Assembly (NCBI GenBank): GCA_964394065.1
Contig: CAYMXM010000001.1
Span: forward strand, 46-64,045
Length of the DNA stretch: 64,000 nucleotides
Reading direction: 5' to 3'
From: an uncultured Pirellula sp.
Lineage (GTDB): Bacteria > Planctomycetota > Planctomycetia > Pirellulales > Pirellulaceae
Shown here piece by piece: positions 19,110-35,008 of the stretch (within the stretch, counting starts at the first letter, position 1; each line of letters opens with the position of its first letter). The notes under the pieces are model-generated. The model saw only the letters and a program-made list of their open reading frames with translations, made no database searches and was not told where the DNA came from. The position numbers and the translations under genes were made by a program.

Positions 19110-19152
19110 GCTTCTCCGGTTTGATGCCGATGACCCAGCCGCTACAGAGCGG

Positions 19153-20298: not shown

Positions 20299-21194
20299 CC
20301 AGTAGTACCTTTGAAGATCTGAGCTTTTTCATCCATAGCTAGAACAATATCGGATCCAGTGGTCGTGTAGAGACGATTAGCTGCGTCACTTGAAACGGAA
20401 TTATTCGTGAGTGTGAGCGAGACAGACATGCCATTGTGGACAATGAACGATCTGGGAAAAGCGCCTGCCTCCATTTCTGTTGCAGAAAATCCAGTGATTG
20501 TTCGAGGTGTAGCTCCTCCGGTAACGCGATAGAGGCTTCCACTCGCAGGCCAAATCAAATTGTCCCAGCTTGGGATCGCACCTGACGGGATACTTCTAGG
20601 GCTGAACCACTTGGCAGACAGAGAGACACCTCCAGAAGTCACTCCATTTCCAACGCGAATATCAGATACGCCCTGCGTGCTGTATGTCACGATAGCGATC
20701 TCGCCAAGATTAAGAACGATGGCATCAATCGTAGCCTTGTCTCCGATTCTCACCGATACAATTGCGTTCAGTACTCCACTTGCGTCAAGTGCCGGTGGAT
20801 TGAGTGGTGTATCGAGCTGAGCCTTGAGCACTGCATCAATCGCATCAACCTTCATCGCGAGCGCGGATACCATAGCCTCTAGATCGGCTTTGCTTGCAAG
20901 TGCTATCGATGTTGCATCGCTGATCGGTTTGTTGGCGTCGGATGTGTTGTCGACTGCACCGAGCCCTACGTCGGATTTGGAAAGACTGCTTATCGCATTG
21001 CTAACCTCTCCCGAAGCAACCTCGCCTGCTATTTCCGCAACTCTTTCCTCGTCGGTGCCCCCGATCATCGCCACATTGCCATTTTCGTCCACCGTTACGA
21101 ATCCAGCCTCAGTGGCAGCAAAGCGAATATGATCCTTCTTCGCTGCGTCGATTGCTCCATTCTCAATCTCGATCTGAATTCCTGCTTTTACCAT
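20277..21194 (-). CDS. Fibre/decoration-like protein
   Basis: DVGLGAVDNTSDANKPIS motif, common in phage fibre proteins, followed by a coiled coil and a beta-rich C-terminus. Confidence 0.65.
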   Translation of the reverse strand: MVKAGIQIEIENGAIDAAKKDHIRFAATEAGFVTVDENGNVAMIGGTDEERVAEIAGEVASGEVSNAISSLSKSDVGLGAVDNTSDANKPISDATSIALASKADLEAMVSALAMKVDAIDAVLKAQLDTPLNPPALDASGVLNAIVSVRIGDKATIDAIVLNLGEIAIVTYSTQGVSDIRVGNGVTSGGVSLSAKWFSPRSIPSGAIPSWDNLIWPASGSLYRVTGGATPRTITGFSATEMEAGAFPRSFIVHNGMSVSLTLTNNSVSSDAANRLYTTTGSDIVLAMDEKAQIFKGTTGWWATKI

Positions 21195-21418
21195 AAGATC
21201 AACTCCGATTCCGAGCTTAACACGATTTCAGATCCGGCATCAAGCACGAGGTCGCTTGGTGCGAAGATTGTGCGGCGAGGGGGAATTACGTATGACTCCC
21301 CCTCAACAAGGTGGTTTGGAGCGGGAATCCCAAAATTTAGATCGTCCCGGACCTCTTGGATGTCGTTGTTAAGCGTATCTTGCGAGACAGCTCGTGGTTG
21401 ACCTGGCGTTACTCCCAT
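21188..21418 (-). CDS. Small hypothetical structural protein
   Basis: 76-aa ORF coupled to the prohead protease gene. Confidence 0.55.
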   Translation of the reverse strand: MGVTPGQPRAVSQDTLNNDIQEVRDDLNFGIPAPNHLVEGESYVIPPRRTIFAPSDLVLDAGSEIVLSSESELILW

Positions 21419-22074
21419 AGGTCAAGCTCCCGTAGTCGCACCGATACGTCCTCCCGAGTTGCTGCAAAACAATTCCGCTCGCGCAGAAGTATTTCGCGTT
21501 CACTCGATTGGATCGATCGACTCGAGGTAGCAGCTTCATACGCTGGAAACGTCACCGGGCCCACGTCGTAGCAGACGCCGATTTCCTTGATCCAACGAAC
21601 ATCGTAGGACTTGCCGTCCTCTTCTTTGATCGTTTCCCAGACTGTGACCGACGGGTAGAAGGAAAAACTGGATCCGGTGACGTCCCCCCGGCTGATCTTC
21701 TCCGCGACGCTCAACCATTGCGGATCGCTGCTCGACTCGTCGCTTTCGTAATACAACCCCACGGCATCGGTGGTGAGGCGACAGGTACCAGCTTCGGTTC
21801 GCCCGAGAACGTAGTTCATGTCGTGATTGAACAAGCAGCGAACGTCTTGCTTCTCGTTGATCACGCGATCGAACGCTCCGGGCATGATCCGCTCGACCAG
21901 GTCATCCCAGAGCCAGTACTCTGTGCTTGGATCGGCAGGGTTGTAGAAGACTGCGCCGTAACCGCGAATGACTTTGGAATCGGACGTCGCGTTCCGCTTC
22001 TGCAACGCCAAACGTCGTTCCCCCGAAGCGGGATTCGAGATTGAGAACCGCCTATGTTGCAACCGCATCGTCAT
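21409..22074 (-). CDS. HK97-type prohead protease
   Basis: RGYGAVF, ERIMPGAF, LFNHD, SSFSF and DVGPVTFPAY motifs. Confidence 0.95.
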   Translation of the reverse strand: MTMRLQHRRFSISNPASGERRLALQKRNATSDSKVIRGYGAVFYNPADPSTEYWLWDDLVERIMPGAFDRVINEKQDVRCLFNHDMNYVLGRTEAGTCRLTTDAVGLYYESDESSSDPQWLSVAEKISRGDVTGSSFSFYPSVTVWETIKEEDGKSYDVRWIKEIGVCYDVGPVTFPAYEAATSSRSIQSSEREILLRERNCFAATREDVSVRLRELDLWE

Positions 22075-23599
22075 CTCCCCGTTCTAAAAGTTTGTCGATT
22101 AGCAAGAGGCTGCTCGCCTCGGCGTGGCCGCGAAGGCTCGCAGCGTCCACACCGAGAAGCGAGTCAAACCACGCGTTGGCCCTGTCCGTGCACTCGGTTC
22201 CGACGAGGGCAGCAACGTTTCGCAAAGTGCTATCGATGATTCCTACAATGTTTTCGCGATCGTCCTCGAGGGGCTTCCCTCGATCGACACGGATGCAAGC
22301 TCGATTGATGGCACGAGCAAAAGCCTCCTCGAGGAGCGAACGGTAGATTTCGTTCCGATCCGTTTCCGCGGAATCGGTTTCCCCAACGGGGGAAAGATTG
22401 AGCGGGTAGTAGTACGTGTCCCCACCCTCGTAGCTATCGAGGTTCTCCCACCCGCGTGTTTCGTTCGCACTGAAACGACCGGCCTGAATCCCCGTGATGG
22501 CAATCGTATTTCGCGTTGCAGCATCAGCCCAAAGGAGGGCGTTGACGTTGTTCTCGATGTACATGCCAGCGGCCCGTTCCTCTTCGGTCAACAACTTTGT
22601 CGTGCATTCCGCACAGTTGCCAATTAACCAGTGGGACAGAGCGCCGTCGTGGTAGTTTCCCTTGGCGGCTTCCTCCGAGTTGAAGCTGATGGAATCTTTG
22701 AGCCCGAGTCTAGACGGTTGAATGTTGTACATGCGAGCCACCTCGCGAACCTGGTTCTCGTCCAATTCGAGAAGCTGGGCTTTCTGTGGATCCACTTGGG
22801 TCGACACCCATTGCATGTTGTCTCGAATCACAAGCGTCTTGAATGCGTTGTCCGAACCCGTGAATCGCTCTTCGATTTGCTTACGTGCCTTGGTTACTGC
22901 CTTTGCCGAAGTGCCTGGTTTGACTTGCAGAATCCCCCCCGCGTTCATGTTGTTGCGGAAGAATCGGGCTTCAAACTGCTTTGCCGCCAATGCGATTGCA
23001 AAGTCCTCCCGGAACAAGCGAATAGTGTTAGCCCCTTGCACGCCGTCGATCGAGAGCCCCTCGAGGTGGAGTACGTCGCTAGCGGCAAAGATTCGCGTTC
23101 CTTTGCGTGACTGTGTCACGCATTGAAGTTTGCCATTGATTCGTGCCATCCAGGTGCGGTCCGGCAGGAGTTGGTAAAGCCCGATCACCTCACCACGGTT
23201 ATTGCGGTCGATCCAAGCGTAAGCGTTCCCCCAAATCAGAGCCGAGGTAAAGTAGCGACGCCAGAACTTGTAACCGTTCACCTCCTCATTGGCCATGCTG
23301 TAGCGATGAATTACTTTTTGAACGGGGTGGCCATCAGCAATCTGGCGCCCCGACCTCGTCTTTTGATAGACGTTCAGAGGCAACTTGGCGCAGTCGCCAG
23401 ATATCATGCTGACCGCTTGATTGAGCGGTGCATACCCCAGCACTTTCGATGCTGTGACGGTGCTACCGGTGTCTCCCGTGTAGCTTCCAGTGGCCTCGGA
23501 AGCCAAGATATCAGCCGTCACCGGTTGCGCTGGATCTTCCAGCGAACGTGATACCCACTCCGCAGCTCGTCTTACTCCTCTTGTGAACCAATTGGCCAT
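22052..23599 (-). CDS. HK97-family portal protein
   Basis: AVSMISGDCAKLPL, LIWGNAY, EVARMYNI and ANETRGWENL motifs. Confidence 0.95.
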   Translation of the reverse strand: MANWFTRGVRRAAEWVSRSLEDPAQPVTADILASEATGSYTGDTGSTVTASKVLGYAPLNQAVSMISGDCAKLPLNVYQKTRSGRQIADGHPVQKVIHRYSMANEEVNGYKFWRRYFTSALIWGNAYAWIDRNNRGEVIGLYQLLPDRTWMARINGKLQCVTQSRKGTRIFAASDVLHLEGLSIDGVQGANTIRLFREDFAIALAAKQFEARFFRNNMNAGGILQVKPGTSAKAVTKARKQIEERFTGSDNAFKTLVIRDNMQWVSTQVDPQKAQLLELDENQVREVARMYNIQPSRLGLKDSISFNSEEAAKGNYHDGALSHWLIGNCAECTTKLLTEEERAAGMYIENNVNALLWADAATRNTIAITGIQAGRFSANETRGWENLDSYEGGDTYYYPLNLSPVGETDSAETDRNEIYRSLLEEAFARAINRACIRVDRGKPLEDDRENIVGIIDSTLRNVAALVGTECTDRANAWFDSLLGVDAASLRGHAEASSLLLIDKLLERGDDDAVAT

Positions 23600-23604
23600 G
23601 ATAT

Positions 23605-25407
23605 CTATACGACGAAAACGTCGTCCTCTCCGTCGTCCTCGACCTCAACTCCCCGACCGACGACCGTCTGAAGACTCATCAAAAGCGATTGGGGGCCGTC
23701 GACCTTCTTGAAGTCCCCACGGGCTTGCTTGACGAGTCGTTTAAAACCGTTCGTGTTGGTGATCGCTACGGCGTTTGCCATCTGCCAAGTCATGACGGGG
23801 TTTCCGTTGTGCCGTATCCGTTGTGAGATGATGCGTCTCTCGCACTCTTGAACTACGGGCCCGTAGTGGATGATTTGCTGAGGAAACTCGACTCGTTCCG
23901 CTTCGGTCATCGCCTCAAGCTCTTGAGTGATGTTCTCAGCTTGGTGCGGGTCGTAGTAAAACTCGTTGACGTGAAACATCTTGATGATCTCAGCAAGGTC
24001 TTGCGTCAGGATCGGATAATCGATAACACGGCCTGGCGTTAATCGAATGTGACCTAGCTCGGCCCAGCGGATGTAGTTCACTCGTTTCTGTTGGCGTCTC
24101 GCTTCCACTTCGGGTAGCCAGAACCAAGTCCGAGTCCATAGGATCCCGTCGGGATCTTCGATGCAAAGCGTAGCCGACACGGTGTCCCGTACCGAAGCTA
24201 GGTCCAAGCCGAGCGCGCTGGTGATGGCGTCGATCTTTCGAAGATCCTCATCGGTGTACGCCTTAAAACAATCAATCCGCTTCTTTGCGTTCTTACGTTC
24301 CGTGGGCCCAGAGTCCCAATCGGAAATGCCCCTCGGAAGGGCCGAATCTATCCAACTGTTCATCGACGTTACCCAGATCCCGAGGCGCAAGCGTTTGAAA
24401 GCGATCCATTGCGAAGGATCATCCTTCGCCGCATGGTAGTCAGCACGGAAGGTGCTAAGTTTCAGTGGGCTATCTTTGTCGGTTCCCAACGATGGGTTGG
24501 CTTTGAACCAGTTGGCTTCGTCGTGGGGATCGTCGTCTTTCGAAAGGCCATACACCGTTCCGAGAAACGTCTCGTCGATCGACCGACCGCTATTTATTTC
24601 AAGGGCTTGGTCGTGTGCGTACTTGCAAACGTTTTCCCCTTCTTCGCCGGCAGTCGTGATCGCAATGAATGCTCCCTCCGGTTGGGAGGCGAGCATCCAC
24701 TTGAGTGCGTTGTAAAACTCGAATCCTTTCCAACGATGGAACTCATCAGCCAAACAATGACCGTTTACACCATCGGCCGAAGCGGGATCCGCCGCGATCA
24801 CCTCCCACGTCGAGTCCCCATACTCGACGGTGTAGAACCCTTCCAGCTTCTTCACTTGAGCAGCTTCCGATAGCTCTGGGCAGTTTCGTATCTGTCGAAT
24901 CGCATGCATCAGGCACTTCTGCGCCTGCTTCTTGGTTGTCGCTGCGAGATAGAGTGCGATTTGTCGCATCGCCCCATCCTCACCGACCGAGTCGGCAAAC
25001 AGCAGATAGTTTCCTAGCAACGAAAGAAACGGTGTCTTACCGTTCTTCTTCGGAAGTTCGGCGTACCACATCCGGAACCGGCGGACGTTGTAGCCCCACT
25101 CCTCGTTGAAACGAACCCAGCCAAAGAACTGAGATGAGCAATCCACTTGCCACGGGAGGAGGCGGAAGGGCAGTCCGGCCCAAGCACCTTCGGTCAACGT
25201 GCCGTGGCGATCGGCGAACTCAAGCCAATGTTCGGCCCGCCTGATATCGAACGTACAGCCGTTGAGCATGGCACGCTCGTCGGCTTCCTCCCCAGCTCCT
25301 TGCCGAATGTACTTGAGCCACCCTTCACGCTTTGCTTTGGCGCGAAGCGAAAGGAGGTCGGTACTGTTCGGCTTCTTGCTCTTGATGTTCTTACGCGGTG
25401 CTATCAA
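23605..25407 (-). CDS. terL: Terminase large subunit
   Basis: Walker A PKKNGKT, Walker B LADEFH, LGLDLAS and KKVDG; likely TTG start overlapping the terS stop. Confidence 0.95.
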   Translation of the reverse strand: MIAPRKNIKSKKPNSTDLLSLRAKAKREGWLKYIRQGAGEEADERAMLNGCTFDIRRAEHWLEFADRHGTLTEGAWAGLPFRLLPWQVDCSSQFFGWVRFNEEWGYNVRRFRMWYAELPKKNGKTPFLSLLGNYLLFADSVGEDGAMRQIALYLAATTKKQAQKCLMHAIRQIRNCPELSEAAQVKKLEGFYTVEYGDSTWEVIAADPASADGVNGHCLADEFHRWKGFEFYNALKWMLASQPEGAFIAITTAGEEGENVCKYAHDQALEINSGRSIDETFLGTVYGLSKDDDPHDEANWFKANPSLGTDKDSPLKLSTFRADYHAAKDDPSQWIAFKRLRLGIWVTSMNSWIDSALPRGISDWDSGPTERKNAKKRIDCFKAYTDEDLRKIDAITSALGLDLASVRDTVSATLCIEDPDGILWTRTWFWLPEVEARRQQKRVNYIRWAELGHIRLTPGRVIDYPILTQDLAEIIKMFHVNEFYYDPHQAENITQELEAMTEAERVEFPQQIIHYGPVVQECERRIISQRIRHNGNPVMTWQMANAVAITNTNGFKRLVKQARGDFKKVDGPQSLLMSLQTVVGRGVEVEDDGEDDVFVV

Positions 25408-25856
25408 CGCTCCGTCTTTCTCCGTGCGAAAGCTTGGATTCCAGCCCCTTTGTTCGAGGCGATCCCCCCATGCTTGCGCATTTGGGCTAAGGAGAACGGA
25501 TGCAAACCGAACTTTGCCCAAAGCCGTTGAAGGTTCGCGAGCGCTTTCTCGCGCATACGCACCTGCGGGGATTCGGACTCGTACCCACTTTCCGAAGTGA
25601 ACGTAGCTCGGGACGGATCTTCCATGAGCCAGTTGGTCAGCCTTCGGTATTCACCGTAGGTTCGGCACAACTCCGCAAAGGTCTCAAGGTGCAGCTCGGT
25701 CAGTAGGTTGATCTCGACGAGCTGGGGAGCTAGTCGATTCCAATACGCCTTGCCAATCTCACACAACCCAAACCCTTCGGGATTTGGGGCGCTCTGAATG
25801 GGTGGTGACTTCTTCGAGACTTTCTTAGCAGCCTTCTTGGTGACCTTCTTGGCCAT
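25404..25856 (-). CDS. terS: Terminase small subunit (P27-like)
   Basis: W..LAPQL..., LCRTY, and ESPQV...KFGLHP motifs. Confidence 0.9.
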   Translation of the reverse strand: MAKKVTKKAAKKVSKKSPPIQSAPNPEGFGLCEIGKAYWNRLAPQLVEINLLTELHLETFAELCRTYGEYRRLTNWLMEDPSRATFTSESGYESESPQVRMREKALANLQRLWAKFGLHPFSLAQMRKHGGIASNKGAGIQAFARRKTER

Positions 25857-26132
25857 CTACTCCCCCTTCGCAGTCTTGATGTCGTGGCATTGTTTGCACA
25901 AGGCTTGCCAGTTCCCTCGTGCCCAGAAGAGCGATCGGTTCCCACGGTGAGGTACAACGTGATCGACGACCGTTGCCGCAATGAAGCGATCTTCCCGAGC
26001 ACACTGAACGCAGAACGGATGTTCCCGCAGAAACGCGGCGCGGGCGTGACGCCATTGCCGATCGTAGCCGCGGTCGGCACTCGATCGACGTCGCGTCGGT
26101 TTTGCCTTGAGTCGCTTCGCCCGATCAGCCAT
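25857..26132 (-). CDS. Packaging-associated HNH endonuclease (gp74-like)
   Basis: RGYDRQW, CVQC, VVDHVVPHRG and NWQALCKQCHDIKT motifs. Confidence 0.92.
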   Translation of the reverse strand: MADRAKRLKAKPTRRRSSADRGYDRQWRHARAAFLREHPFCVQCAREDRFIAATVVDHVVPHRGNRSLFWARGNWQALCKQCHDIKTAKGE

Positions 26133-26442
26133 CGGTCATCGGTGCAACGATCGAAAGCGTTCGCTTACATTCCGAAGCCGCTAGACTCTTGAGTTCGGCG
26201 GTACGCTCTGGCCCTACCTCCTTCAGGAACTCATCCGCCCAAGCAACGTAAGTTCGCGATGGGGTCCAGCAGAGGGTATAGCCGGCGCGAATGACCGACG
26301 ACTTGCCGGATTTCTCCAGCTCGACCCGAAACTCGTCCTCCAATTGCTCGCATCTCTTCTTGAACGTTTCGGCTTCGCGGCCTAGTGCGAGTCGTTTCTC
26401 GTTGCAACGATGCCACTCGTTAAGCTTGGTTTCAAGAGACAT
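26125..26442 (-). CDS. Hypothetical phage protein
   Basis: 105 aa with an N-terminal coiled coil; coupled to both neighbours. Confidence 0.7.
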   Translation of the reverse strand: MSLETKLNEWHRCNEKRLALGREAETFKKRCEQLEDEFRVELEKSGKSSVIRAGYTLCWTPSRTYVAWADEFLKEVGPERTAELKSLAASECKRTLSIVAPMTDG

Positions 26443-26938
26443 AAGTCGTATCCTCTTTTACGCGAATGATCGGACTGATGACCCATTCCAGCCATCGCCA
26501 AAATTGGAAGTAGTCAAGAACCGGATTGAGCCAATCGGTTATGACGCAGTAGCGAACCTCGAAAGGACTTCGATGATGTTCGCCATGGTGTCGTGGGCTT
26601 TGTAACAGCCCCGTTTCCTGAAGTGCACGAATGAAGGGGCTACACTTCTGGTGGGCCCAGGCATGTACTTCATTCGCCTGAGAGGCAAAGACGAAAACCC
26701 AGGAGGGATAGATCGCGAAGGCGATCGCAGCCGGGAGGATGGTTGTCCAGTTACGTGTCCAATAATCCCCCTTCAGGAACGCGGCTGGTTGCGCGTGATG
26801 CAAGCTGTTCGGTTTGGCGATGTATTTGCCGATGATTGGCCACTTCTCTTCGAAGTACCGATCCTCGATCCAATGCCAGAAACCTGATAGAAAGTCAGCA
26901 AGCAACCAAGCCACGAGAAGCTCGGTTAGGAAAACCAT
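26432..26938 (-). CDS. CarF/TMEM189/FAD4-family lipid desaturase
   Basis: ADFLSGFWHWIED, LHHAQP, NEVHAWAH, PRHHGEHH, YCVITDWLN and FWRWLE motifs. Confidence 0.88.
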   Translation of the reverse strand: MVFLTELLVAWLLADFLSGFWHWIEDRYFEEKWPIIGKYIAKPNSLHHAQPAAFLKGDYWTRNWTTILPAAIAFAIYPSWVFVFASQANEVHAWAHQKCSPFIRALQETGLLQSPRHHGEHHRSPFEVRYCVITDWLNPVLDYFQFWRWLEWVISPIIRVKEDTTYVS

Positions 26939-28029
26939 TTGCTGAGCTGCCCCCGAAAGACGTAGCCTGCGATTCCTCCCGCAGCGAACCCGACAGCAAG
27001 AACAACTAGGTTCCGAAGCAACGACCCGAAAAACGAGATTACTGGTCGATCGGGCTTATTAGGTCGTAGCAAACCCGTGTCGCCATCGGGCTGTTGAGGC
27101 TCCGGCTTGTTCGGCCGAAGTCGTCCCCCTGTGATGGCGTCCACCAGGTCCTCGTCACCCTGCTCGATATCCTGCGTTGGCCAAGCAGCTCGGTAAAGCG
27201 TTTCCGCGGAATCGGTCGCATCGGCATCGAGGCAACTCACTTCCCTGGCGTGGGGTGGTAAGGGCTCGAGCGACTTAGGGAGTCGACCTTGCAGAGCATT
27301 CAGCACGAACGGCATCGATTGTCCCAGTCCTTCACCGCCCCCACCCCATGTGAGAAGACCAACGACCTCGGGACCATTGGAGGTGTAGTCGATGACGCTT
27401 GAACCCGATCGGCCACCGATCGCCTCGGGATGCCAAGTTAGAATCTGCCCCTCGGATCGATTCAACTTGAGCACCTGAAGGGAAGGCCATTCGCATCGAG
27501 GACACCCATAGGTGGTGATCAATGCGGATGTGTCCGGTTGTCGGTTCGCGATGGGGACCGGCTTCACGTCGGTACCGAATCCTTCTGCAGCTCGTAAGAT
27601 CGCGAAGTCGATCGACATACCTCGACCGTAACCACTTGCGACGATCGATGCGGTGGATCGCTGACTCCGGCCGTTGAGTTCCCAACGTTCGACATTGACG
27701 ACTCGTCCCTTGGTGGTCCCTGCTACGTGGGCATTGGTCAAGATAAGAGACCGCCCATTTGCATCTTTGCCAACGATAGTACCGCTTCCGCAAACGCCAC
27801 TTACCGTAACCCGAACCGTGGCCCGAATTACCTGCTCGAACGCATCGCCACCAGCGCCGGCTTCTGCTGGGCTCACCGAGCTGGTCAACCCTTGCGAGTC
27901 GGCTTGGTTCAGCGTGTGAATGTGAATTCCCTCGACGGGGAGACAACCGTTCGGTCCACAGACCACTTGAGCCATTGCTGGCGTGACGAAGAGCGTCACG
28001 AGAGCACTGAGTACTGCAAAGCGCAGCAT
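26926..28029 (-). CDS. Secreted trypsin-like serine protease with C-terminal membrane anchor
   Basis: Signal peptide MLRFAVLSALVTLFVTPAMA; triad motifs LTNAHV, IDFAIL and GGRSGSSV; C-terminal TM helix LVVLAVGFAAGGIAGYVF. Confidence 0.88.
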   Translation of the reverse strand: MLRFAVLSALVTLFVTPAMAQVVCGPNGCLPVEGIHIHTLNQADSQGLTSSVSPAEAGAGGDAFEQVIRATVRVTVSGVCGSGTIVGKDANGRSLILTNAHVAGTTKGRVVNVERWELNGRSQRSTASIVASGYGRGMSIDFAILRAAEGFGTDVKPVPIANRQPDTSALITTYGCPRCEWPSLQVLKLNRSEGQILTWHPEAIGGRSGSSVIDYTSNGPEVVGLLTWGGGGEGLGQSMPFVLNALQGRLPKSLEPLPPHAREVSCLDADATDSAETLYRAAWPTQDIEQGDEDLVDAITGGRLRPNKPEPQQPDGDTGLLRPNKPDRPVISFFGSLLRNLVVLAVGFAAGGIAGYVFRGQLSKWFS

Positions 28030-28033
28030 CTTC

Positions 28034-28222
28034 TCACCTCTTTCTTGGAGACAGACTTTTAGAGATTCTCCAGACAGTGACGCGACTGATGCCAAACTTT
28101 TTGGCGATGTCCTTCGTGCGAACTCCAGATCTTTTCGCAACCGCGACTCGCATTCGGTCTTGGCCGCTTAGCAATTTTTTTTGCTGTCCGTTCTTGAAAC
28201 GCTGGTACTGTCTTGATCTCAC
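28034..28222 (-). CDS. Small helix-turn-helix protein
   Basis: GVRTKDIAKKFGISRVTVWRI HTH. Confidence 0.75.
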   Translation of the reverse strand: MRSRQYQRFKNGQQKKLLSGQDRMRVAVAKRSGVRTKDIAKKFGISRVTVWRISKSLSPRKR

Positions 28223-28301
28223 GACTAAGAATTCGGCGGCAGTATAGTGGGGCGGATGGGTGATGTTTCAATGTACCCAAACACCCCACCCTAAAAACAT
28301 T

Positions 28302-28372
28302 CCAAAAATGTGCGCGCCTACTTCGCGGTCAACGGCTGGGCCCGGACGCCAAAATTTTGCCCCCCTCCCCGA
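28302..28372 (-). other. Candidate cos/packaging site
   Basis: Minus strand reads GGGGAGGGGGGCAAAATTTT...GACCGCG...GCGCGCACATTTTTGG, resembling the layout of cos regions in HNH/P27-terminase phages (recognition only). Confidence 0.4.
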
Positions 28373-28568
28373 CCGTCGTGCGGCTTTCCGCACAGCCCGT
28401 CCTGTCCCTGAACTAACAGGTCGGTCGGTCTGAAGCGCCATTTCCCACCGAGTACCTTCTATGCAAACGAAGGTCTTAATGGGTATGATCCGAACGTTTG
28501 ACTACTAACTCTGGTTCGGATGAGCCGGTAGCAAAAGCCTCGTAGAGCTGGAGGACACATAGAAAAGT

Positions 28569-30290
28569 ATGGACAGAGTAACAACCAATCTATTGCAAGA
28601 GTTCGTAAGGGAAAACCAACATGAGTCCTTGCAAGTATCTGAGCAGTTTGAACACTTTGTTAATTTTGCGACGGTGTCCCGCGAGTACGCAGATACCTTT
28701 GACCACACCTCCGTCCATGTGGGAAAAGACGGAAACCCAGGAATCGACGGGGTTGGAATCATCGTAAACGGAGCGATCGTTGACGATGCCGAGGAGATTG
28801 ACGATCTATTGGAAAAAAACAAGTACCTCGAAGTTACGTACGTTTTCGTGCAAGCAAAAACGAGCAGTTCGTTCTCAAGTGGCGATATCAGCACGTTCAT
28901 TGAGTCTGTTCGGGATTTTTTCCGTGAGGTTCCCGGACAGGTACAAAGCGAGGACCTCAAGAGAAAGTTTGACCTTCAATCTAAAATCCTCAGTCATTCG
29001 GGGAAGATGCGAGCTAATCCAAAGTGCAGCTTGTACTACGTCACGACTGGCACATGGGTCGGTGATCAGAATTTAGTTTCCCGAATAGAGTCGGGTAAAA
29101 AGGATCTTGAAGACACAGAGCTGTTTAGTACAGTTTCCGTGACTGCATGTGGAGCGAGGGAAATCCAACAGTACTATCGTCAAAGCAAGGAGACGCTCGA
29201 CGCAGAGTTTGATTTCACTAACAAAGTGACGCTCCCATCGATCCCCGGTATCAACGAGGCACATATAGGCATCCTCCCAATGGGAACGATTCTTCGCCTT
29301 ATTTCCGACAGTGTCGGAAACGTGAGAAAGGCCGTTTTTGAGGACAATATTCGAGACTTTCAAGGTAGCTCGGAGATTAACGAACGAATCCAAACAACAT
29401 TGAAGGATGACGAAGCGGCGCTGAGATTTGCCGTTTTGAACAACGGAATTACCATCGTCTGCAGGAACCTCAGGTTTACAGGAGCACGCTGCAAGATTGA
29501 TGGCTTTCAGGTTGTGAACGGTTGCCAAACCTGTCACGTCCTTTTCAATTGCTCCTCCGTTAATCACGCGGATAATGTTTTTGTTCCGGTTAAGCTAATT
29601 GCGACACAGGACGAAGACATTGTCAATTCGATCATTCGCTCAACCAATTCACAGAACGAGGTCAAGCCTGAGCAGCTAGAAGCGATGACGGAGTTCCAAA
29701 AAACATTGGAGACTTTCTATAAGACCTATAGGAAAACTCCGGGAGAGCTTTTTTATGAACGCCGATCAAAGCAATATGCTTCCGAACCTATAGAAAAAAC
29801 TCGAATTATCACGATTCCCACTCAGATCAAATCGTTTTCCGCGTTGTTTCTGGCGGTCCCCCATCGCGTCGCAGGCTACTACGGAACCATACGCGAAAGA
29901 ATGAACGATCAAATTTTCAAACCAGAACATAAACCTATCGCATACTACGCTTGCGGCTATGCGTGGTACAGGCTTGAGACACACTTCCGAGTGAAGGGAG
30001 TTGACTTTAACAAGTGGAGGTCGCTTAAGTGGTATATGCTGATGATTTTTGCGAGAATGGCAGCTGGTGCTCCCCCACAAGCAGCAACAAGGGAATGTGA
30101 GAGATATTGCGAAAAGCTCATAAAGAAGCTGGATGACACCCAAGAAGTTAAGCGATTGTTCGACTCAATTGCAACTCGGCTCTCAAAGATTAATCCAAAG
30201 ACGGATAAGGATTCGGTGAAGACTCTGAATTTCAGAGATTCTATTTTGGATGGTTTCAAAGACTTGCTTCTTCCAGAGAAAAATCGATAA
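28569..30290 (+). CDS. AIPR family protein (abortive infection phage resistance), moron
   Basis: FEDNIRDF, FAVLNNGITI, QVVNGCQT and STNSQN motifs; opposite strand; AT-richer than its neighbours. Confidence 0.88.
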   Translation: MDRVTTNLLQEFVRENQHESLQVSEQFEHFVNFATVSREYADTFDHTSVHVGKDGNPGIDGVGIIVNGAIVDDAEEIDDLLEKNKYLEVTYVFVQAKTSSSFSSGDISTFIESVRDFFREVPGQVQSEDLKRKFDLQSKILSHSGKMRANPKCSLYYVTTGTWVGDQNLVSRIESGKKDLEDTELFSTVSVTACGAREIQQYYRQSKETLDAEFDFTNKVTLPSIPGINEAHIGILPMGTILRLISDSVGNVRKAVFEDNIRDFQGSSEINERIQTTLKDDEAALRFAVLNNGITIVCRNLRFTGARCKIDGFQVVNGCQTCHVLFNCSSVNHADNVFVPVKLIATQDEDIVNSIIRSTNSQNEVKPEQLEAMTEFQKTLETFYKTYRKTPGELFYERRSKQYASEPIEKTRIITIPTQIKSFSALFLAVPHRVAGYYGTIRERMNDQIFKPEHKPIAYYACGYAWYRLETHFRVKGVDFNKWRSLKWYMLMIFARMAAGAPPQAATRECERYCEKLIKKLDDTQEVKRLFDSIATRLSKINPKTDKDSVKTLNFRDSILDGFKDLLLPEKNR

Positions 30291-30379
30291 AGGTCAAACT
30301 GGCATTCTGCTTGGCAGATAGGATTTCTTCGTTATGTGGGTCCACCGGGGCTACACAACCCATGAGCCAATCACCTTCT

Positions 30380-30802
30380 TTAAGTTGCGTCATCAAACAC
30401 CTCACATTGAGCATATCGGACTGGTGGCCGCGTCCCACCAGGGATACCAACCAACCAAGGGAAGTCATCATCGCCGCCATAACCGAGGAGAGCACAGTGC
30501 GCCCACTCTTCGTTCTCACTATCGCGAACACGACACTGCAAAGTCCCCGCTTGCACAAGATCAGAGAACCGAGCCGGTCTCCACTTGCGTTCAGCCCAGT
30601 CCCAACCGTCACAGTTGGGCAATATCCTCAACCAACTCGGTAGCTCACGTGGGAGTGTCAACGTGTCGCCATTACGTGTTATCGCTATCATCGGATTGCC
30701 GCCCTCGAAGTCCGAGCATGTTTCTAGGTCTAGCACAACTTGGGAGCGTACGCCGTCCAACGACTCGAGCCAGTCACCAACAAAGATTACGTTACTCATC
30801 AA
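30380..30802 (-). CDS. Hypothetical phage protein
   Basis: GAGGTG RBS; contains LPNCDGWDW...KWRPA...CRVRD. Confidence 0.7.
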   Translation of the reverse strand: MMSNVIFVGDWLESLDGVRSQVVLDLETCSDFEGGNPMIAITRNGDTLTLPRELPSWLRILPNCDGWDWAERKWRPARFSDLVQAGTLQCRVRDSENEEWAHCALLGYGGDDDFPWLVGIPGGTRPPVRYAQCEVFDDAT

Positions 30803-30847
30803 TCACCTCACAGAATGTGTAGTTAACGATGTAGTTTCGACCATTGC

Positions 30848-31258
30848 TTATCGCGAGCCAGGGGAGCGCAGTCGGGAGAACACATCCGCTCTCGTCCACC
30901 TGGAATGTGCTGTACCCACATAGCACAGCGGCCCCAATGGGGCATCCTCATTGTCCCGTACACGACACCTAACAGGAGCCGTTGTGTTGATGTCCATAGG
31001 CGTAGCGGGTCGCCACTTGTCAAGCTTCCCCAAACAGTACGTCGGGCAGCTTTGTAATTCAGGGCTTCCCCACACATGGATACAATACAATCTTACCACG
31101 ATAATCGACGCCAATCATGGGGTTGGCTGTTGTGGTATTCCGATTGCTCTGGGCGAGTGTCAACTGAGATTGACTCGCTGGTCAGTTCGCAAATGCTAAA
31201 GTATCCATTTGAGTCCCTTTACCCTGCCTTTCTTCGACACTTTCAAATCAGTGATCAT
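30848..31258 (-). pseudogene. Degenerate paralog of 30380-30802
   Basis: Strong RBS at 31258 with an early stop. NPMIG in one frame and KWRPATPMD...CRVRDNE in another match NPMIA and KWRPARFSD...CRVRDSE of the neighbour. Confidence 0.55.
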
Positions 31259-31303
31259 CGTTTTCCCTCTTCTCCTTTTTGTGGTGAACCTTTCCATCGT
31301 GAA

Positions 31304-32986
31304 TCACACTAGTGCTTTCGGTATCGGTAGCATTTTCTCTGAGTGAGACTTGATCAGAGCCGTGACTAGCTCTCCACGCTTTTCGAGTTTCGTCGACAGC
31401 TTCAACTCTTTGCATCGGATCTGCAATTGATGAATCGTATGTCGGCCTAGCCAAACGGTGAGCAATTGCTGTTGCGGCCCTTCCTCCGTTGTCGACTTCC
31501 AGAAGTCTCTCATGCTGATTCCGCAGAACTCAGACAATTGATCAACCAAGTGATGTTGGAGCGCCGGCAGTTTCGAAAGATCGGGGAGTTCCCCAGCTCC
31601 TGGAATCTCTTTGCTCTTCGTTGGTTTGCAGGAGACAGGCCACAGCATGAGACGCCACCAATCCACTAGGTATCGAACACCGTGGGAAACCGGGAGGCGA
31701 ATTGGGGATCCCCAACCGCTCTTCAGGGACTTGGCTTGGGCGTCGGCTTCGTCATACGCCAGCGAAACAATGTCTTGCATTCTGTTCGATTGCAAATACG
31801 CCTCGATCACGAATCCGAGCGTTGATAGCTTTTGCGTCTCAGTCGCGTTCAACGCCAACTGACAACGTAGAGCCATTGACTTCCACTCTGCGGTAAAGTT
31901 CTTCAGCCTTCGATCGGCTTCGGCTCGATTCTCCTTGTCGATCTCGGCTTGCTCCTCGGGGGACAACGCGGGAGCTGCGCCGTCGAGCTTTTTCTTCGCG
32001 TTCCCGTTGCGAGCCCTGGAGACGGACCTTCTCTCCAACGCTTTCGTTTGAAGCTTATCCCACAACTTCATGTTCGTAGTTGCGATGTACTTCTCACCTG
32101 CAACCTGAAACTCGATCGGGTTTAGCTCCTGCAATTGCTCGGCGGTCGGCTTGAAGAGCATCTTATCGCAACCGTGGAAAGTCTTATCGACTTGCCAGTT
32201 GCTTATCTCCCGATCATCCATCGGGCGAGTGAACTGGCTGAATGTCCACTCAAGCCAGTACGGCCATTCGTCGGTAGTCATCAATTCCACTCGGTTCTCT
32301 TCATCGAGCAGGTCTGATTCGATCTTCTCCATCATCGCGGGGATCTCCAGCAACGGTATCAGTCGCCGAGCTGCTCGTTCGCTCAACTTCCCTGAGATGA
32401 TCATGGTTCGAATCGATTCGGGGAGTCGCAGGATCCGCAAAGCGTTCTTCGTGCCGCTGTCGCTGTTGAGACCGACGGCCTTACCGGCTGCGGCTCGCTC
32501 CAGGCCGGATCCCCCTTCGGAAATTGGCCGCATCAGTTTCGAAATCAACTCGGCTCGCTCAACAGCATTCAAGTCGCGTCGGTTGCTGTTCGCTGCAGCT
32601 AGGCGAACCAACGCATCGTCGGAGTTCTCACGAACGACCGTTGCACGAATCGTATCGCGTTTCAGTTCCATCAATGCGCGGTAGCGACGCTCGCCGCTAA
32701 GAAGCTCATAGGGATACTTGCTATCCCCGGTAGCTCGAACGGTTGCTGGCTCAAGCTGCCCGAAGGTAGCGATCGAGTCGGCTAGGTCGTAGATCGAGCT
32801 ATCCCCCTTCAAGTTGCGATTGCTCGCATGCGGTTTGATTTGCTGGATCGGAATATCTTCGATAAGGCACTCGGTCACGAGGGCTTTGGCTGGGTTCGTT
32901 CCCGAGTATTCCTCGGGCTTTTCGACATTTGTAGTCGGCTGTTTGCACGCGGTAGTCGGCTTGCGTTTTGATGTGGTAGATGCCAT
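31304..32986 (-). CDS. ParB/Spo0J N-terminal domain protein
   Basis: LADSIATFGQLEP...YELLSGERRYRA and NSNRRDLN motifs, followed by an HTH. Confidence 0.88.
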   Translation of the reverse strand: MASTTSKRKPTTACKQPTTNVEKPEEYSGTNPAKALVTECLIEDIPIQQIKPHASNRNLKGDSSIYDLADSIATFGQLEPATVRATGDSKYPYELLSGERRYRALMELKRDTIRATVVRENSDDALVRLAAANSNRRDLNAVERAELISKLMRPISEGGSGLERAAAGKAVGLNSDSGTKNALRILRLPESIRTMIISGKLSERAARRLIPLLEIPAMMEKIESDLLDEENRVELMTTDEWPYWLEWTFSQFTRPMDDREISNWQVDKTFHGCDKMLFKPTAEQLQELNPIEFQVAGEKYIATTNMKLWDKLQTKALERRSVSRARNGNAKKKLDGAAPALSPEEQAEIDKENRAEADRRLKNFTAEWKSMALRCQLALNATETQKLSTLGFVIEAYLQSNRMQDIVSLAYDEADAQAKSLKSGWGSPIRLPVSHGVRYLVDWWRLMLWPVSCKPTKSKEIPGAGELPDLSKLPALQHHLVDQLSEFCGISMRDFWKSTTEEGPQQQLLTVWLGRHTIHQLQIRCKELKLSTKLEKRGELVTALIKSHSEKMLPIPKALV

Positions 32987-33053
32987 AGTTTGTTGTCCTT
33001 TCGGGGATAATTGAGAGGGTGTGAGGGGGAAGCAGCTCACGCCCTCTTTTTCG

Positions 33054-34166
33054 TTACTGGGTTGGTGGTTGAGGGTTGGTGGGCGTTGTTGGTCTAGGAC
33101 GTCCTAGGTTTGCGATTATCTTGCGTTCCTCCTCGGTGAATCCCTTTGCACGCTCTTCGGGGGCCAGATAGATTTTTGACCGTTGTTCTTGAGGAGGACT
33201 CGGGGGAGAGGGCGACGGAGCCGGTGGAACGAACGGCGGACACCTTGCTCGAATCTCGTAGTAGGACAATTCCAGGTCCTGGCAGATTCCACGAGCACAT
33301 GCTCGAAGGTAGTTCGCAGGGGAGGAGAAAGATTGCTTGCCTCGGATGCCAGCGCGTTGTTCTGCAAGCTGTTCGCCACCAGTGATTCGCTGGGCAACCA
33401 AGCAGACGAAGGCTAACTCCCACGCTACCGAAAGGATCTCGGGACGCAAATGCTTCGGGAACGCAGTGACGATCTTCTCGGATGCTTCGATGAGTTCGTC
33501 CAGTTGATCGTCGTCATCGTCATCAACAGCCGCCGTCGCCGTCTCATTCTCCAAGCGACGGCGACAGCGGTAGTGATTAAGCGTAAGCGTATATAAAGAG
33601 GGATTTGAAATTGTCGCTTCGTTGTCGTTCGATTGTCGCCCAGTTGTCGCGACATTGTCGTCTTGTTGTCGCGAGTTTGTCGCGTTGTTGTCGTGCGACT
33701 GTCGCCCTGTTGTCGCGTCGGTTTGGCCCTCCGCCGAGACATCATTTTCGGGGGGGCAATTTTCCCAAACGATGCCAGACGAAGCCTCTGCAAGTGCAAC
33801 GATGTTGGACCAATTGATTTGCAGAGCAACCATTCCATCTTCGCCAGGGACGGAACGGCACAGGCGTACAAGATCAAGGTCCTGCAATCGCTTCAACGCC
33901 CGCTGAACATTTCGCAAACAGCAGTCAAGCTCGACGGTAAGCTGTTCATGCGTTCTGGTGAAAGTATCGAAGCCGCACAGGCGAACAGCGTTTCGCAGGA
34001 GAATCCCAGTCGCCGACTTCACCCTTATGCCAGCGACGCTCAATGCAATCTCTGTCGTCTTGAGCATTTGGTTACGGGCGATATCTCGGGCAACCTCACT
34101 AGCCTTCTTATCCTGAGCGGCACCAAACTGGTGATCAAAGAGGGGATATTCCGACTCTCGTGTCAT
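33054..34166 (-). CDS. Replication initiator-like protein
   Basis: N-terminal HTH (EQLTVELDCCLRNVQRALKRLQDLDLV), an internal 11-aa repeat linker encoded by iteron-like DNA, and a C-terminal helical domain. Confidence 0.75.
   Translation of the reverse strand: MTRESEYPLFDHQFGAAQDKKASEVARDIARNQMLKTTEIALSVAGIRVKSATGILLRNAVRLCGFDTFTRTHEQLTVELDCCLRNVQRALKRLQDLDLVRLCRSVPGEDGMVALQINWSNIVALAEASSGIVWENCPPENDVSAEGQTDATTGRQSHDNNATNSRQQDDNVATTGRQSNDNEATISNPSLYTLTLNHYRCRRRLENETATAAVDDDDDDQLDELIEASEKIVTAFPKHLRPEILSVAWELAFVCLVAQRITGGEQLAEQRAGIRGKQSFSSPANYLRACARGICQDLELSYYEIRARCPPFVPPAPSPSPPSPPQEQRSKIYLAPEERAKGFTEEERKIIANLGRPRPTTPTNPQPPTQ
33611..33715. repeat. Putative origin iterons: ten (T/C)TGTCG motifs at exact 11-bp spacing
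   Basis: Motif starts at 33611, 33622, 33633, 33644, 33655, 33666, 33677, 33688, 33699 and 33710; AT-rich tract at about 33575-33612. Confidence 0.8.
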
Positions 34167-34575
34167 TTTTGTATCTCCGGCATCATGTCGGAAGAGTGTT
34201 GTAAATTGCGTTGTAAATCGGGTGTTTTTCGATGCCAAAAACCAAGAAACAATAGTCTTAGGAAGACTATGGTTTTCAGCGTTTTTGAATCGCCTTCATC
34301 GACCTCTAAAGGCGTACCTTTAGCGGTCCGAGCAACCATCAGTTGCTAAGTTGAGTGCGTACAACGAACGGACTGAGAAACGCTCAGTTTTTGAACATCG
34401 ATGTTCGCGGGATCAAATTGTCCGTACCGGTAGCGGCTCCGTTGGCTCGCATTGCAAATTGAGACAGCGGTTAGGCAGACCGGACGTCGGGGAGGGGAGC
34501 GGTTAAGGTCCAGATGGCATGGTTGTGAGCCTTCTTGTTAAAGTGAATTGTCTTGGTGCAGTTGAGCTGCGCCGG

Positions 34576-34998: not shown

Positions 34999-35008
34999 CG
35001 CGGTGTTC

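What the first reader, a model, noticed from the sequence alone, without database searches (positions are those of the whole stretch)
26125..28222. No recognisable holin, endolysin or spanin; candidate protease/lipid-based lysis cassette
Seen: across the whole att-bounded element I found no amidase, muramidase, holin or spanin motif. The first late genes are instead HTH, a signal-peptide serine protease with a C-terminal TM anchor (GGRSGS active site), the desaturase and a 105-aa protein. Established: planctomycete envelopes have thin peptidoglycan and are protein-rich. Inference: a periplasm-facing anchored protease plus membrane remodelling may replace classical lysis genes. Divergent lysis genes could be hidden among the hypothetical proteins.
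Basis: inference. Interest (0 to 1): 0.7.

Follow-up and report, generated by a model that had tools for sequence, protein, structure and literature searches.

The report
Serine-protease lysis cassette in planctomycete prophage
A prophage in a Pirellula-like planctomycete has no known cell-bursting genes; where they would sit it carries an exported serine protease plus a lipid desaturase, a block that related phages swap for an exported cysteine-protease block, so it is probably an undescribed protease-based way for a phage to burst its host.

Summary
The 36-kb tRNA-Phe prophage (5825-42098) has no lysozyme, amidase, transglycosylase, holin or spanin that Pfam, PHROGs or six-frame searches can see. 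Its late operon opens with an HTH gene, a signal-peptide S1 serine protease with a C-terminal membrane anchor, a PF10520 lipid desaturase and a 105-aa orphan. These genes overlap one another and run straight into HNH-TerS-TerL.

Comparison with relatives adds the main evidence. Protease plus desaturase form a mobile two-gene unit found only in Pirellulaceae phage late operons. In two unrelated phage backbones this unit is replaced cleanly by another cassette: a lipoprotein papain/C39-like cysteine protease, a CxxC protein with signal peptide and C-terminal anchor, and a small membrane protein. The flanking DNA stays 90-94% identical. Of 41 close backbone-2 loci spanning the slot, 29 carry the cysteine cassette, 12 the serine one, none neither, none both. 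Two complete-length phage genomes also lack any classical lysin.

The best reading, at about 0.5, is a lysis module whose lytic enzyme is an exported peptidase. Its substrate, its trigger and the desaturase's role are inferred. The HTH and the 105-aa gene are not part of the swapped unit. No experiment or expression data were available.

The parts
28034..28222 (-). 62-aa HTH protein, first gene of the late operon. Probably a late activator or DNA-binding protein. It flanks the exchanged cassette and is not part of it.
   Evidence: Pfam HTH_23 E 2.5e-7. PHROG HTH / late activator hits. 61-65% identical copies precede the protease in L001, L026 and L027.
26926..28029 (-). 367-aa exported S1 (chymotrypsin-fold) serine peptidase. 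It has a cleavable signal peptide (residues 1-21), a ~45-aa Cys-bearing N-terminal segment, and a catalytic domain with H101/D141/S208 and an invariant CPRC (176-179). A Pro-rich linker leads to a C-terminal transmembrane anchor (about residues 330-350).
   Evidence: Trypsin_2 at 37.7 bits. Triad and CPRC are invariant in 19 homologues that are 46-69% identical. The AF2 core has pLDDT 70-90. Foldseek gives probability 1.0 to trypsins, DegS/DegQ/Deg8 and Rv3671c. Hydropathy.
27406..27408 (-). Codon of the catalytic serine S208 (GGRSGSS).
   Evidence: Invariant column in alignment A1.
26432..26938 (-). 168-aa integral-membrane lipid desaturase of the CarF/PEDS1(TMEM189)/FAD4 family. It is a short form lacking the N-terminal ~80 aa of the cellular enzymes. 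It is co-inherited with the protease as one exchange unit.
   Evidence: PF10520 E 5.8e-39. Eight His are invariant in 35 phage and cellular sequences. Only 33% identical to the host's own CarF-like gene on contig C18. It lies inside the swapped segment L005 9951-11676.
26125..26442 (-). 105-aa soluble orphan protein. It is present only in the closest relatives and is not a constant part of the cassette.
   Evidence: No Pfam or PHROG hit. Only one other cluster among 5.8 billion proteins. 53-55% identical copies in L001/L026/L027; absent in L013, L047, L050 and L051.
25857..26132 (-). HNH endonuclease, the conserved downstream flank of the slot (packaging module HNH-TerS-TerL).
   Evidence: Pfam HNH E 5.8e-9; phrog_2323 E 1.7e-31.
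23605..25856 (-). Small and large terminase subunits.
   Evidence: Terminase_4; TerL_ATPase and TerL_nuclease; phrog_9 E 2.6e-108.
5825..42098 (.). The whole prophage, bounded by a 55-nt att repeat at tRNA-Phe. It holds no recognisable lysis gene.
   Evidence: family scans; six-frame searches.

Best explanation
The two genes at 26432-28029 are most likely the phage's lysis module, or its enzymatic core.

Shown:
- They are transcriptionally packed into the start of the late operon.
- The protease has a Sec signal peptide, an intact His-Asp-Ser triad and a C-terminal membrane anchor. Its catalytic domain should therefore sit on the periplasmic face of the cytoplasmic membrane.
- The desaturase keeps all eight iron-binding histidines.
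- The pair moves as one unit and is allelic to a cysteine-protease cassette in related phages.

Inferred:
- Late in infection the tethered peptidase accumulates in the periplasm and cuts peptide bonds that hold the wall together. These could be peptidoglycan stem or cross-link peptides, as S1 enzymes L1/L5 of Lysobacter and the papain/C39-like N5 domains of mycobacteriophage LysA do. They could be the Cys/Pro-rich wall proteins of planctomycetes. Or the peptidase could act indirectly by activating host autolysins, as the membrane-anchored S1 protease MarP does.
- The desaturase changes membrane lipids next to the head group. It may help to time or complete envelope failure, taking the place that the CxxC anchored protein and the small membrane protein hold in the alternative cassette. 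This last step is the weakest.
For: 1. No classical lysis family appears in the element. None appears in a complete 38.7-kb relative with the cassette (G203) or in a 38.2-kb relative without it (G201).

2. The protease is the only exported enzyme of the phage, and the desaturase is its only polytopic membrane protein.

3. The genes overlap one another and lie directly upstream of HNH-TerS-TerL. This is the position of S-R-Rz in lambdoid phages (position from established knowledge).

4. The module occurs only in phage late operons:
- 13 genome loci and 29 IMG/VR loci.
- Protease in 10 of 201 Pirellulaceae genomes, and absent in two genomes of the same genus.

5. The exchange is clean:
- The host's own second prophage (contig C61, L086) is 94.5% and 90.5% identical in DNA to L005 on either side.
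- In between, L005 has protease plus desaturase (9951-11676).
- L086 has a lipoprotein cysteine protease, a 346-aa signal-peptide/CxxC/C-terminal-anchor protein and a 98-aa membrane protein (814-2995).

6. A survey seeded with the capsid gene, and so unbiased for the cassette: of 41 close loci spanning the slot, 29 carry the cysteine cassette, 8 protease plus desaturase, 4 protease alone, 0 empty, 0 both.

7. In backbone 1, a survey seeded with TerL gave 4 loci with protease plus desaturase, 4 with the cysteine cassette and 0 with neither.

8. The alternative enzyme folds (pLDDT 93) like staphopain and C39-like peptidases, including 3erv. These are the same matches that define the N5 peptidase domain of mycobacteriophage endolysins (PMC3314691).

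9. S1-family proteases that hydrolyse peptidoglycan bridges exist (PMC12250508).

10. Even 31-38% identical S1 homologues sit in the same phage slots.
Against:
- The serine cassette has no small holin-like membrane protein, and nothing identified would keep an exported wall-cutting enzyme silent until the right time.
- Foldseek neighbours are generic trypsins and HtrA/DegS/MarP-type proteases, not specifically bacteriolytic enzymes. The model is only moderate overall (mean pLDDT 64).
- The profile found no solved relative by sequence.
- The desaturase is missing in L007, L010, L011, L028-30, L123, L125, L130 and L132, so it cannot be essential to the function.
- In backbone 2 the cassette sits between head and neck genes, a place where morons also insert.
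- More distant relatives (capsid gene at or below 67% identity) have the slot empty. Some carry a remote version one or two genes further on.
- About 20 hypothetical proteins of the prophage were not tested at fold level.
- Many IMG/VR contigs may be redundant samples of few phages.
Confidence: 0.5

Rival explanations
1. Superinfection-exclusion or receptor-destroying module. The anchored periplasmic protease, with lipid modification, alters or removes envelope proteins. Incoming phages cannot inject, or progeny are not lost on cell debris. Lysis is carried out by other, unrecognised genes.
For: The proteins are exported and membrane-anchored. In backbone 2 the block lies amid structural genes like a moron. 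Non-homologous cassettes swapped at one site are also typical of exclusion or defence hot spots. An Abi gene (AIPR) lies next door.
Against: The genes are translationally coupled inside the late operon, with no promoter- or terminator-like site of their own. No close relative lacks both cassettes (0 of 41 and 0 of 8), which is unusual for an accessory function. The phage would still be left without any lysis gene.
Confidence: 0.15
2. Classical lysis genes exist but are too divergent to recognise among the roughly 20 hypothetical proteins. On this reading the protease-desaturase pair is an auxiliary envelope or lipid-metabolism block that improves phage yield, for instance through membrane fluidity or turnover of periplasmic proteins.
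For: Many ORFs have no family, including 7067-7516, 7517-8707, 8704-9747, 18384-18959 and 20277-21194. The desaturase family is otherwise metabolic, and the host has a cellular copy in a lipid locus.
Against: Outside the cassette no hypothetical gene has a signal peptide or membrane segment, so there is no holin or exported enzyme candidate. No unknown non-structural gene is shared by the window, G203 and G201. The alternative cassette has an endolysin-type (N5-like) fold.
Confidence: 0.15
3. The cassette is the lysis module, but the protease acts only indirectly. It cleaves and activates host peptidoglycan hydrolases or their inhibitors, so the wall is cut by host autolysins.
For: Rv3671c (MarP), a membrane-anchored periplasmic S1 protease, and DegS/DegQ are among the best structural neighbours. 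That MarP activates the hydrolase RipA comes from my own knowledge. The host encodes two Amidase_2 enzymes.
Against: No substrate was identified. The alternative cysteine protease resembles endolysin peptidase domains that act directly. High conservation of the catalytic domain across hosts (46-69%) fits either model.
Confidence: 0.12

Closest known systems
Lambdoid lysis cassette (holin S, endolysin R, spanins Rz/Rz1) at the start of the late operon, upstream of the terminase genes
   Same: It is the first block of the late operon, directly upstream of the packaging genes. It is tightly packed. It is a mosaic unit in which non-homologous enzymes replace each other at the same site in related phages.
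   Different: No holin, muralytic glycosidase or amidase, or spanin homologue is present. The enzyme is a serine peptidase and its partner is a lipid desaturase.
Secreted and signal-anchored endolysins (fOg44 Lys44 with a cleavable signal peptide; P1 Lyz and phage 21 R21 with SAR domains)
   Same: Holin-independent, Sec-dependent delivery of the lytic enzyme to the periplasm, and membrane tethering before action.
   Different: Here the signal peptide looks cleavable (AMA|Q) and the tether is a C-terminal helix. The helix composition is not distinctly SAR-like (Gly/Ala/Ser fraction 0.21-0.53). The catalytic fold is S1, not lysozyme.
Mycobacteriophage lysis enzymes: LysA with a papain/C39-like N5 peptidase domain, and LysB esterase (PMC3314691, PMC6116114)
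   Same: Host-envelope-specific enzymes are added to, or replace, standard lysins. The alternative Pirellulaceae cassette has the same fold matches (staphopain, B. anthracis C39-like peptidase) as the N5 domain.
   Different: LysA is cytoplasmic and multidomain with glycosidase or amidase modules. The planctomycete enzymes are single-domain, exported and lipid- or helix-anchored. No esterase is present.
Bacteriolytic S1 proteases of Lysobacter (alpha-lytic protease, L1, L5; PMC12250508)
   Same: Chymotrypsin-fold serine proteases that lyse bacteria by cutting peptidoglycan peptide bridges.
   Different: They are secreted predatory enzymes with large pro-regions, not phage genes. No detectable sequence similarity was found.
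CarF / PEDS1 (TMEM189) / FAD4 lipid desaturases (PF10520)
   Same: The HMM match is full-length and all eight conserved histidines are kept. The protein is membrane-embedded.
   Different: It is 168 aa against about 250-310 aa, lacking the N-terminal membrane region. It is phage-borne, late-expressed and paired with a protease. Substrate unknown.

Membership tests
Peptidase family S1 / clan PA (Pfam Trypsin_2, PF13365) | Profile score above the curated cut-off | tested here: met
   37.7 bits against 27.6, E 4.2e-9.
Peptidase family S1 / clan PA (Pfam Trypsin_2, PF13365) | His-Asp-Ser catalytic triad in that order | tested here: met
   H101 (TNAHV), D141 (DFA) and S208 (GGRSGS) are invariant in 19 homologues.
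Peptidase family S1 / clan PA (Pfam Trypsin_2, PF13365) | Double beta-barrel chymotrypsin fold | tested here: met
   AF2 core pLDDT 70-90. Foldseek probability 1.0 to chymotrypsinogen, DegS and Rv3671c; target-normalised TM 0.5-0.62.
Peptidase family S1 / clan PA (Pfam Trypsin_2, PF13365) | Proteolytic activity and substrate | not testable with these tools
   Needs purified protein.
CarF/PEDS1/FAD4 lipid desaturase (PF10520) | Profile score above cut-off over the whole domain | tested here: met
   134.4 bits against 26.4; profile positions 1-171 of 175.
CarF/PEDS1/FAD4 lipid desaturase (PF10520) | Conserved histidine ligands | tested here: met
   H22, H47, H48, H92, H96, H118, H121 and H122 are invariant in 35 phage and cellular sequences.
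CarF/PEDS1/FAD4 lipid desaturase (PF10520) | Desaturation of a defined lipid (vinyl-ether or delta-3-trans bond) | not testable with these tools
   Needs lipidomics.
Canonical holin-endolysin-spanin lysis cassette | Muralytic enzyme of a known family | tested here: not met
   No such Pfam or PHROG family in any ORF. Six-frame Amidase_2, Phage_lysozyme and SLT searches found nothing in the window.
Canonical holin-endolysin-spanin lysis cassette | Small membrane protein (holin) next to the enzyme | tested here: not met
   No small transmembrane ORF in 25800-28600. The only 2-TM ORF (30256-30612) is outside the operon, has poor coding score and no PHROG holin hit.
Canonical holin-endolysin-spanin lysis cassette | Late-operon position beside packaging genes, and mosaic replacement by analogous cassettes | tested here: met
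   Gene order and overlaps. Clean swap with 90-94% identical flanks. Counts 29/12/0 across 41 loci.
SAR (signal-anchor-release) endolysins | Uncleaved, weakly hydrophobic N-terminal anchor | tested here: not met
   The N-terminus looks like a cleavable signal peptide with AMA|Q. The anchor is C-terminal and of ordinary composition.
Moron / lysogenic-conversion gene | Own promoter and terminator; expressed in the lysogen | tested here: inconclusive
   The consensus scan found none within the block, but planctomycete promoters are not covered. No RNA data.
Moron / lysogenic-conversion gene | Dispensable: close relatives lack it without replacement | tested here: not met
   0 of 41 close backbone-2 loci and 0 of 8 backbone-1 loci lack both cassettes.

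The most novel reading that the evidence does not exclude
Phages of Pirellulaceae burst their hosts without any muralytic glycosidase or amidase. An exported protease, serine or cysteine type and interchangeable, dismantles a wall whose integrity depends on protein or peptide links. In the serine version a phage lipid desaturase acts as an enzymatic timer or membrane-breaker, a holin-like role carried out by lipid chemistry rather than by a pore-forming protein.
Probability: 0.12. Interest if true: 0.9.

Novelty: new variant of a known kind. Interest (0 to 1): 0.68.

Why it matters
Every characterised tailed phage of walled bacteria lyses with a muralytic endolysin, and lysis of planctomycetes has not been studied. 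I found no paper on it in the library.

The comparative pattern here points to a whole group of phages that use exported peptidases instead. This bears on the long debate about what holds the planctomycete wall together: thin peptidoglycan or Cys/Pro-rich protein. It would provide a natural probe for that question.

It would also add new enzyme classes to the lysin toolbox and give genetic tools for a phylum that is hard to lyse and to manipulate. A late-expressed phage lipid desaturase tied to a protease has no described precedent.

Tried and rejected
- **Classical lysis families.** Pfam and PHROGs on about 50 ORFs, and six-frame searches, found nothing.
- **Holin candidate 30256-30612 (118 aa, 2 TM).** It overlaps the better-scoring ORF 30380-30802, lies outside the late operon and has no PHROG holin hit. 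Set aside.
- **Recent capture of the host's own desaturase.** Rejected. The cellular copy on contig C18 is only 33% identical and longer.
- **Host (cellular) origin of the protease.** Rejected. There is one copy in the genome, none in genomes of the same genus, and all homologues examined lie in phage contexts.
- **Sequence profiles against solved structures.** Neither the protease nor the cysteine-protease family gave a hit.
- **SAR-like character of the C-terminal anchor.** Its composition is not distinctive.
- **Promoter/terminator scan.** Fewer sites than in shuffles, so uninformative.
- **105-aa protein.** Only one other cluster exists and nothing was learned.
- **Viral structure library.** Only generic S1 folds with no functional annotation.
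- **Host Amidase_2 genes as prophage lysins.** Rejected. They have housekeeping neighbours (BacA, ABC1, HemD).
Full report
**1. What is in the window**

A 55-nt direct repeat (5825-5879 and 42044-42098, one mismatch) overlaps the 3' part of tRNA-Phe (42046-42119). It bounds a 36.2-kb element. A tyrosine integrase lies at 5958-6836. Nearly everything else is on the minus strand.

Family scans give a siphovirus-type map:
- Early region: XRE repressor-like gene (40951-41202), CsrA-like gene, a second integrase-like gene, and ParB-like gene (31304-33040).
- An AIPR abortive-infection gene on the opposite strand (28569-30290).
- Late operon, start: HTH (28034-28222), protease (26926-28029), desaturase (26432-26938), 105-aa ORF (26125-26442), HNH (25857-26132), TerS, TerL.
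- Late operon, continued: portal, prohead protease, major head protein, adaptor, tail completion, major tail protein, tape measure (10585-12840), and four unassigned distal genes.

**2. The observation**

The protease ORF most plausibly starts at 28029. Its features:
- Signal peptide MLRFAVLSALVTLFVTPAMA|Q.
- Trypsin_2 match above the gathering score.
- A hydrophobic helix near the C-terminus.

The desaturase matches PF10520 over the full domain (134 bits). The genes overlap by 13, 11 and 8 nt, and HNH abuts TerS. No terminator-like hairpin lies between them on the coding strand. They are therefore read as one late transcript, though this is inferred from layout and not measured.

No ORF of the element matches a lysozyme, amidase, transglycosylase, peptidoglycan peptidase, holin or spanin family in Pfam or PHROGs. 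The small ORFs in the gaps were included.

A hydropathy scan finds membrane segments in credible genes only in the protease, the desaturase and the tape measure.

Six-frame searches of the whole 5.8-Mb assembly give:
- Amidase_2 only on contigs C183 and C271, beside BacA, an ABC1 kinase and HemD, so these are cellular genes.
- No Phage_lysozyme.
- No SLT above cut-off.

The limit is that about 20 hypothetical proteins were tested by sequence profiles only.

**3. The protease**

Nineteen homologues that are 46-69% identical share:
- an invariant His101, Asp141 and Ser208;
- an invariant CPRC at 176-179;
- a signal peptide;
- a pair of cysteines just after it;
- a C-terminal membrane helix.

An AlphaFold model is confident in the core (pLDDT 70-90) and poor in the N-terminal segment and linker. 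Foldseek places it in the chymotrypsin fold. Bacterial neighbours are Deg8, DegQ, DegS and the membrane-anchored mycobacterial protease Rv3671c. The viral library gives only generic S1 folds. A sequence profile finds no solved relative.

At least 246 protein clusters belong to the family. All are named 'hypothetical' or 'trypsin-like peptidase', and all come from Pirellula, Pirellulaceae or Planctomycetota.

**4. The desaturase**

Eight histidines are invariant across 35 phage and cellular PF10520 sequences, so the catalytic centre is kept.

The host has its own CarF-like gene (contig C18, 248 aa). It lies beside a fatty-acid-hydroxylase-like gene and a diacylglycerol-kinase-like gene. The phage copy is only 33% identical to it and lacks its N-terminal ~80 residues. 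It is an old phage lineage of the family, not a recent capture.

**5. Where the pair occurs**

The protease is present in 10 of 201 Pirellulaceae genomes. It is absent from two genomes of the same genus and single-copy in the host. All 13 genome loci and 29 IMG/VR loci are phage late operons.

Two backbones carry it:
- **Backbone 1 (this prophage).** The order is HTH, protease, desaturase, sometimes the 105-aa gene, then HNH, TerS and TerL. It includes a 38,668-bp record that IMG/VR classes as complete (G203).
- **Backbone 2.** The order is TerL, portal, protease-capsid fusion, one or two DUF2190-like genes, a small gene, protease, desaturase, then neck genes and tape measure.

The desaturase is absent from several backbone-2 phages. 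In some of these the protease instead carries two or three extra N-terminal membrane helices (L092, L123, L130). Even homologues at 31-38% identity sit in the same phage slots.

**6. The key result: an allelic cassette**

Backbone-1 relatives with 71% identical TerL (L057-L061, G201) lack both genes. In the same place, upstream of HNH, they carry three genes:
- a ~200-aa lipoprotein with invariant GSC.HAS, WWKPSHC and LDNN motifs;
- a ~300-aa protein with signal peptide, CPPC motif and C-terminal anchor;
- an ~85-aa protein with an N-terminal membrane helix.

The lipoprotein family has over 225 clusters, many on contigs of 35-40 kb. It folds with pLDDT 93 as a papain-like protease. The best matches are staphopain, C39 peptidases and the B. 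anthracis C39-like peptidase 3erv. These are the matches by which Payne and Hatfull defined the N5 peptidase domain of mycobacteriophage endolysins (PMC3314691). The same trio lies upstream of the terminase of an unrelated lambda-like phage (L078).

The host genome itself carries a backbone-2 prophage (contig C61, L086). Its DNA is 94.5% and 90.5% identical to L005 on either side of the slot. Between the flanks, L005 has exactly protease plus desaturase (9951-11676). L086 has the cysteine-protease trio (814-2995).

A survey seeded with the capsid-fusion gene, and so blind to the cassette, returned 80 IMG/VR loci:

| Group | Loci | Cysteine cassette | Protease + desaturase | Protease alone | Empty | Both |
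|---|---|---|---|---|---|---|
| Seed gene at least 78% identical, slot spanned | 41 | 29 | 8 | 4 | 0 | 0 |
| Seed gene at or below 67% identical | 17 | – | – | – | 17 | – |

Among the 17 distant loci with an empty slot, four have a remote cysteine-protease hit just beyond the next gene; in the one locus examined (L137) a CxxC anchored protein lies beside it. An 18th distant locus (L153) has the serine protease two genes on.

In backbone 1 the TerL-seeded loci split four with the serine cassette, four with the cysteine cassette, and none with neither.

Pfam scans of all remaining ORFs of G203 and G201 gave 23 families, none of them lytic.

**7. Interpretation**

Two non-homologous cassettes, each built around an exported protease, replace each other at the same site in different phage backbones. 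Every close relative has exactly one. None of these phages has a recognisable lysin. The cassettes contain the only exported proteins of the phage.

This is the behaviour of lysis cassettes in lambdoid phages, where transglycosylase, lysozyme and SAR-lysozyme versions replace each other upstream of the terminase genes (established knowledge). Peptidases of both folds are known to cut peptidoglycan peptides:
- N5 domains of LysA (PMC3314691);
- S1 enzymes L1 and L5 of Lysobacter (PMC12250508).

I therefore take the block as the lysis module, with the protease as the lytic enzyme, at a confidence of about 0.5.

Whether it cuts peptidoglycan peptides, wall proteins or host autolysin precursors is open. 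How it is held in check is unknown. Candidates are a pro-segment, the CxxC motif or the anchor.

The desaturase belongs to the exchange unit but is dispensable in some phages. A role in timing or membrane failure is conjecture.

The HTH gene is a conserved flank, probably a late regulator. The relative's version has a weak Mor match. The 105-aa gene is a lineage-specific orphan.

**8. Rivals**

- An exclusion or receptor-destroying module is possible. It fits poorly with late-operon coupling and with the absence of relatives lacking both cassettes.
- Hidden classical lysins cannot be excluded without fold-level screening. However, no other gene has export or membrane signals.
- An indirect, MarP-like activation of host hydrolases is a variant of the lysis reading.

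**9. Earlier notes of this scan**

Notes found only after I had reached this reading report exported papain-type protease cassettes with a thioredoxin-like partner in other planctomycete phages, read as protease-based lysis. They are unchecked AI notes, not independent evidence.

They agree with what I derived here for the cysteine cassette. What this window adds is a serine-protease plus desaturase allele of that cassette and the clean exchange between the two.

**10. Novelty**

I found no paper on planctomycete phage lysis or on phage CarF-type desaturases in the library. I class the finding as a new variant of a known kind: a phage lysis cassette with unprecedented enzymes. If the wall target proves to be protein, and the desaturase a lysis factor, it would be further from anything described.

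Noticed in passing
G000 contig C61 (L086 642-2808): The same host genome carries a second prophage of a different backbone. Its slot holds a lipoprotein papain/C39-like cysteine protease, a 346-aa signal-peptide/CxxC/C-terminal-anchor protein and a 98-aa membrane protein. This cassette is far commoner than the serine one (22 of 201 family genomes, up to 4 copies).
   Followed up: yes
window 19153-20298 (minus strand): A second chymotrypsin-like protein lies in the head module. It has a weak Big_2 match (E 0.005), then ANHA / GDSGSP motifs and no signal peptide. It sits between the prohead protease and the capsid gene, next to a 305-aa protein with tail-fibre-like repeat hits (20277-21194). The relative L001 has an 823-aa and a 306-aa protein there instead.
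   Followed up: partly
window 28569-30290 (plus strand): An AIPR / Abi-alpha-like abortive-infection gene (PF10592 E 1.7e-48, phrog_1841 E 1.4e-85). It is the only long gene on the opposite strand, lies between the early and late operons, and is in the lowest-GC stretch of the window (0.48). It is probably a defence moron.
   Followed up: no
G000 contig C18 (L067 246-3059): A cellular CarF-like desaturase (248 aa) is flanked by a diacylglycerol-kinase-like gene and a 380-490-aa fatty-acid-hydroxylase/sterol-desaturase-like membrane protein. The same trio recurs in other Pirellulaceae (L065, L069, L073). This suggests a sporadic ether-lipid or plasmalogen-type pathway in the family (PF10520 in 17 of 201 genomes).
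   Followed up: partly
L012 2190-2672; L058 7056-7943; L137 10013-11416: Periplasmic CxxC motifs recur in these cassettes. Examples are a membrane-anchored CPPC protein between protease and desaturase in L012, CPPC or CRYC in the ~300-aa anchored partner of the cysteine protease, and the invariant CPRC inside the serine protease. Disulfide chemistry may be part of the mechanism.
   Followed up: partly
L092 9672-11255; L123 9792-11378; L130 10330-11898: Protease-only variants without a desaturase are 522-528 aa. They carry two or three extra N-terminal membrane helices, a Cys-rich linker and a basic cytoplasmic tail.
   Followed up: partly
L058 6214-7053 and many homologues of 245-290 aa: In backbone-1 relatives the HTH domain and the lipoprotein cysteine protease lie in one open frame with no stop between them, giving an HTH / membrane helix / protease layout. 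This could be a real ToxR-like fusion or an internal start; not resolved.
   Followed up: no
window 7067-8707 (minus strand): The last two late genes have no family hit. One is a 396-aa acidic protein with 31 cysteines. The other is a 149-aa protein whose C-terminal half carries a GCSC...W...AVNHKLGHK pattern reminiscent of Erv1/ALR sulfhydryl oxidases, as another first-stage note proposed. Pfam does not detect it.
   Followed up: no
window 46675-46939, 48846-49040, 51178-51377, 57870-58054, 61161-61198, 124-198: A family of 90-115-nt intergenic repeats with inverted-repeat ends (CACAACCCGTGGCGTAAGCGAGGGA...) lies in the host DNA outside the prophage, in four to six copies. They look like REP or MITE-type elements.
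   Followed up: no
window 38358-39452 (minus strand): A second tyrosine-recombinase-like gene (Phage_integrase E 2.6e-8) lies inside the early region. It is conserved at 67-72% identity in L001, L026 and L027.
   Followed up: no
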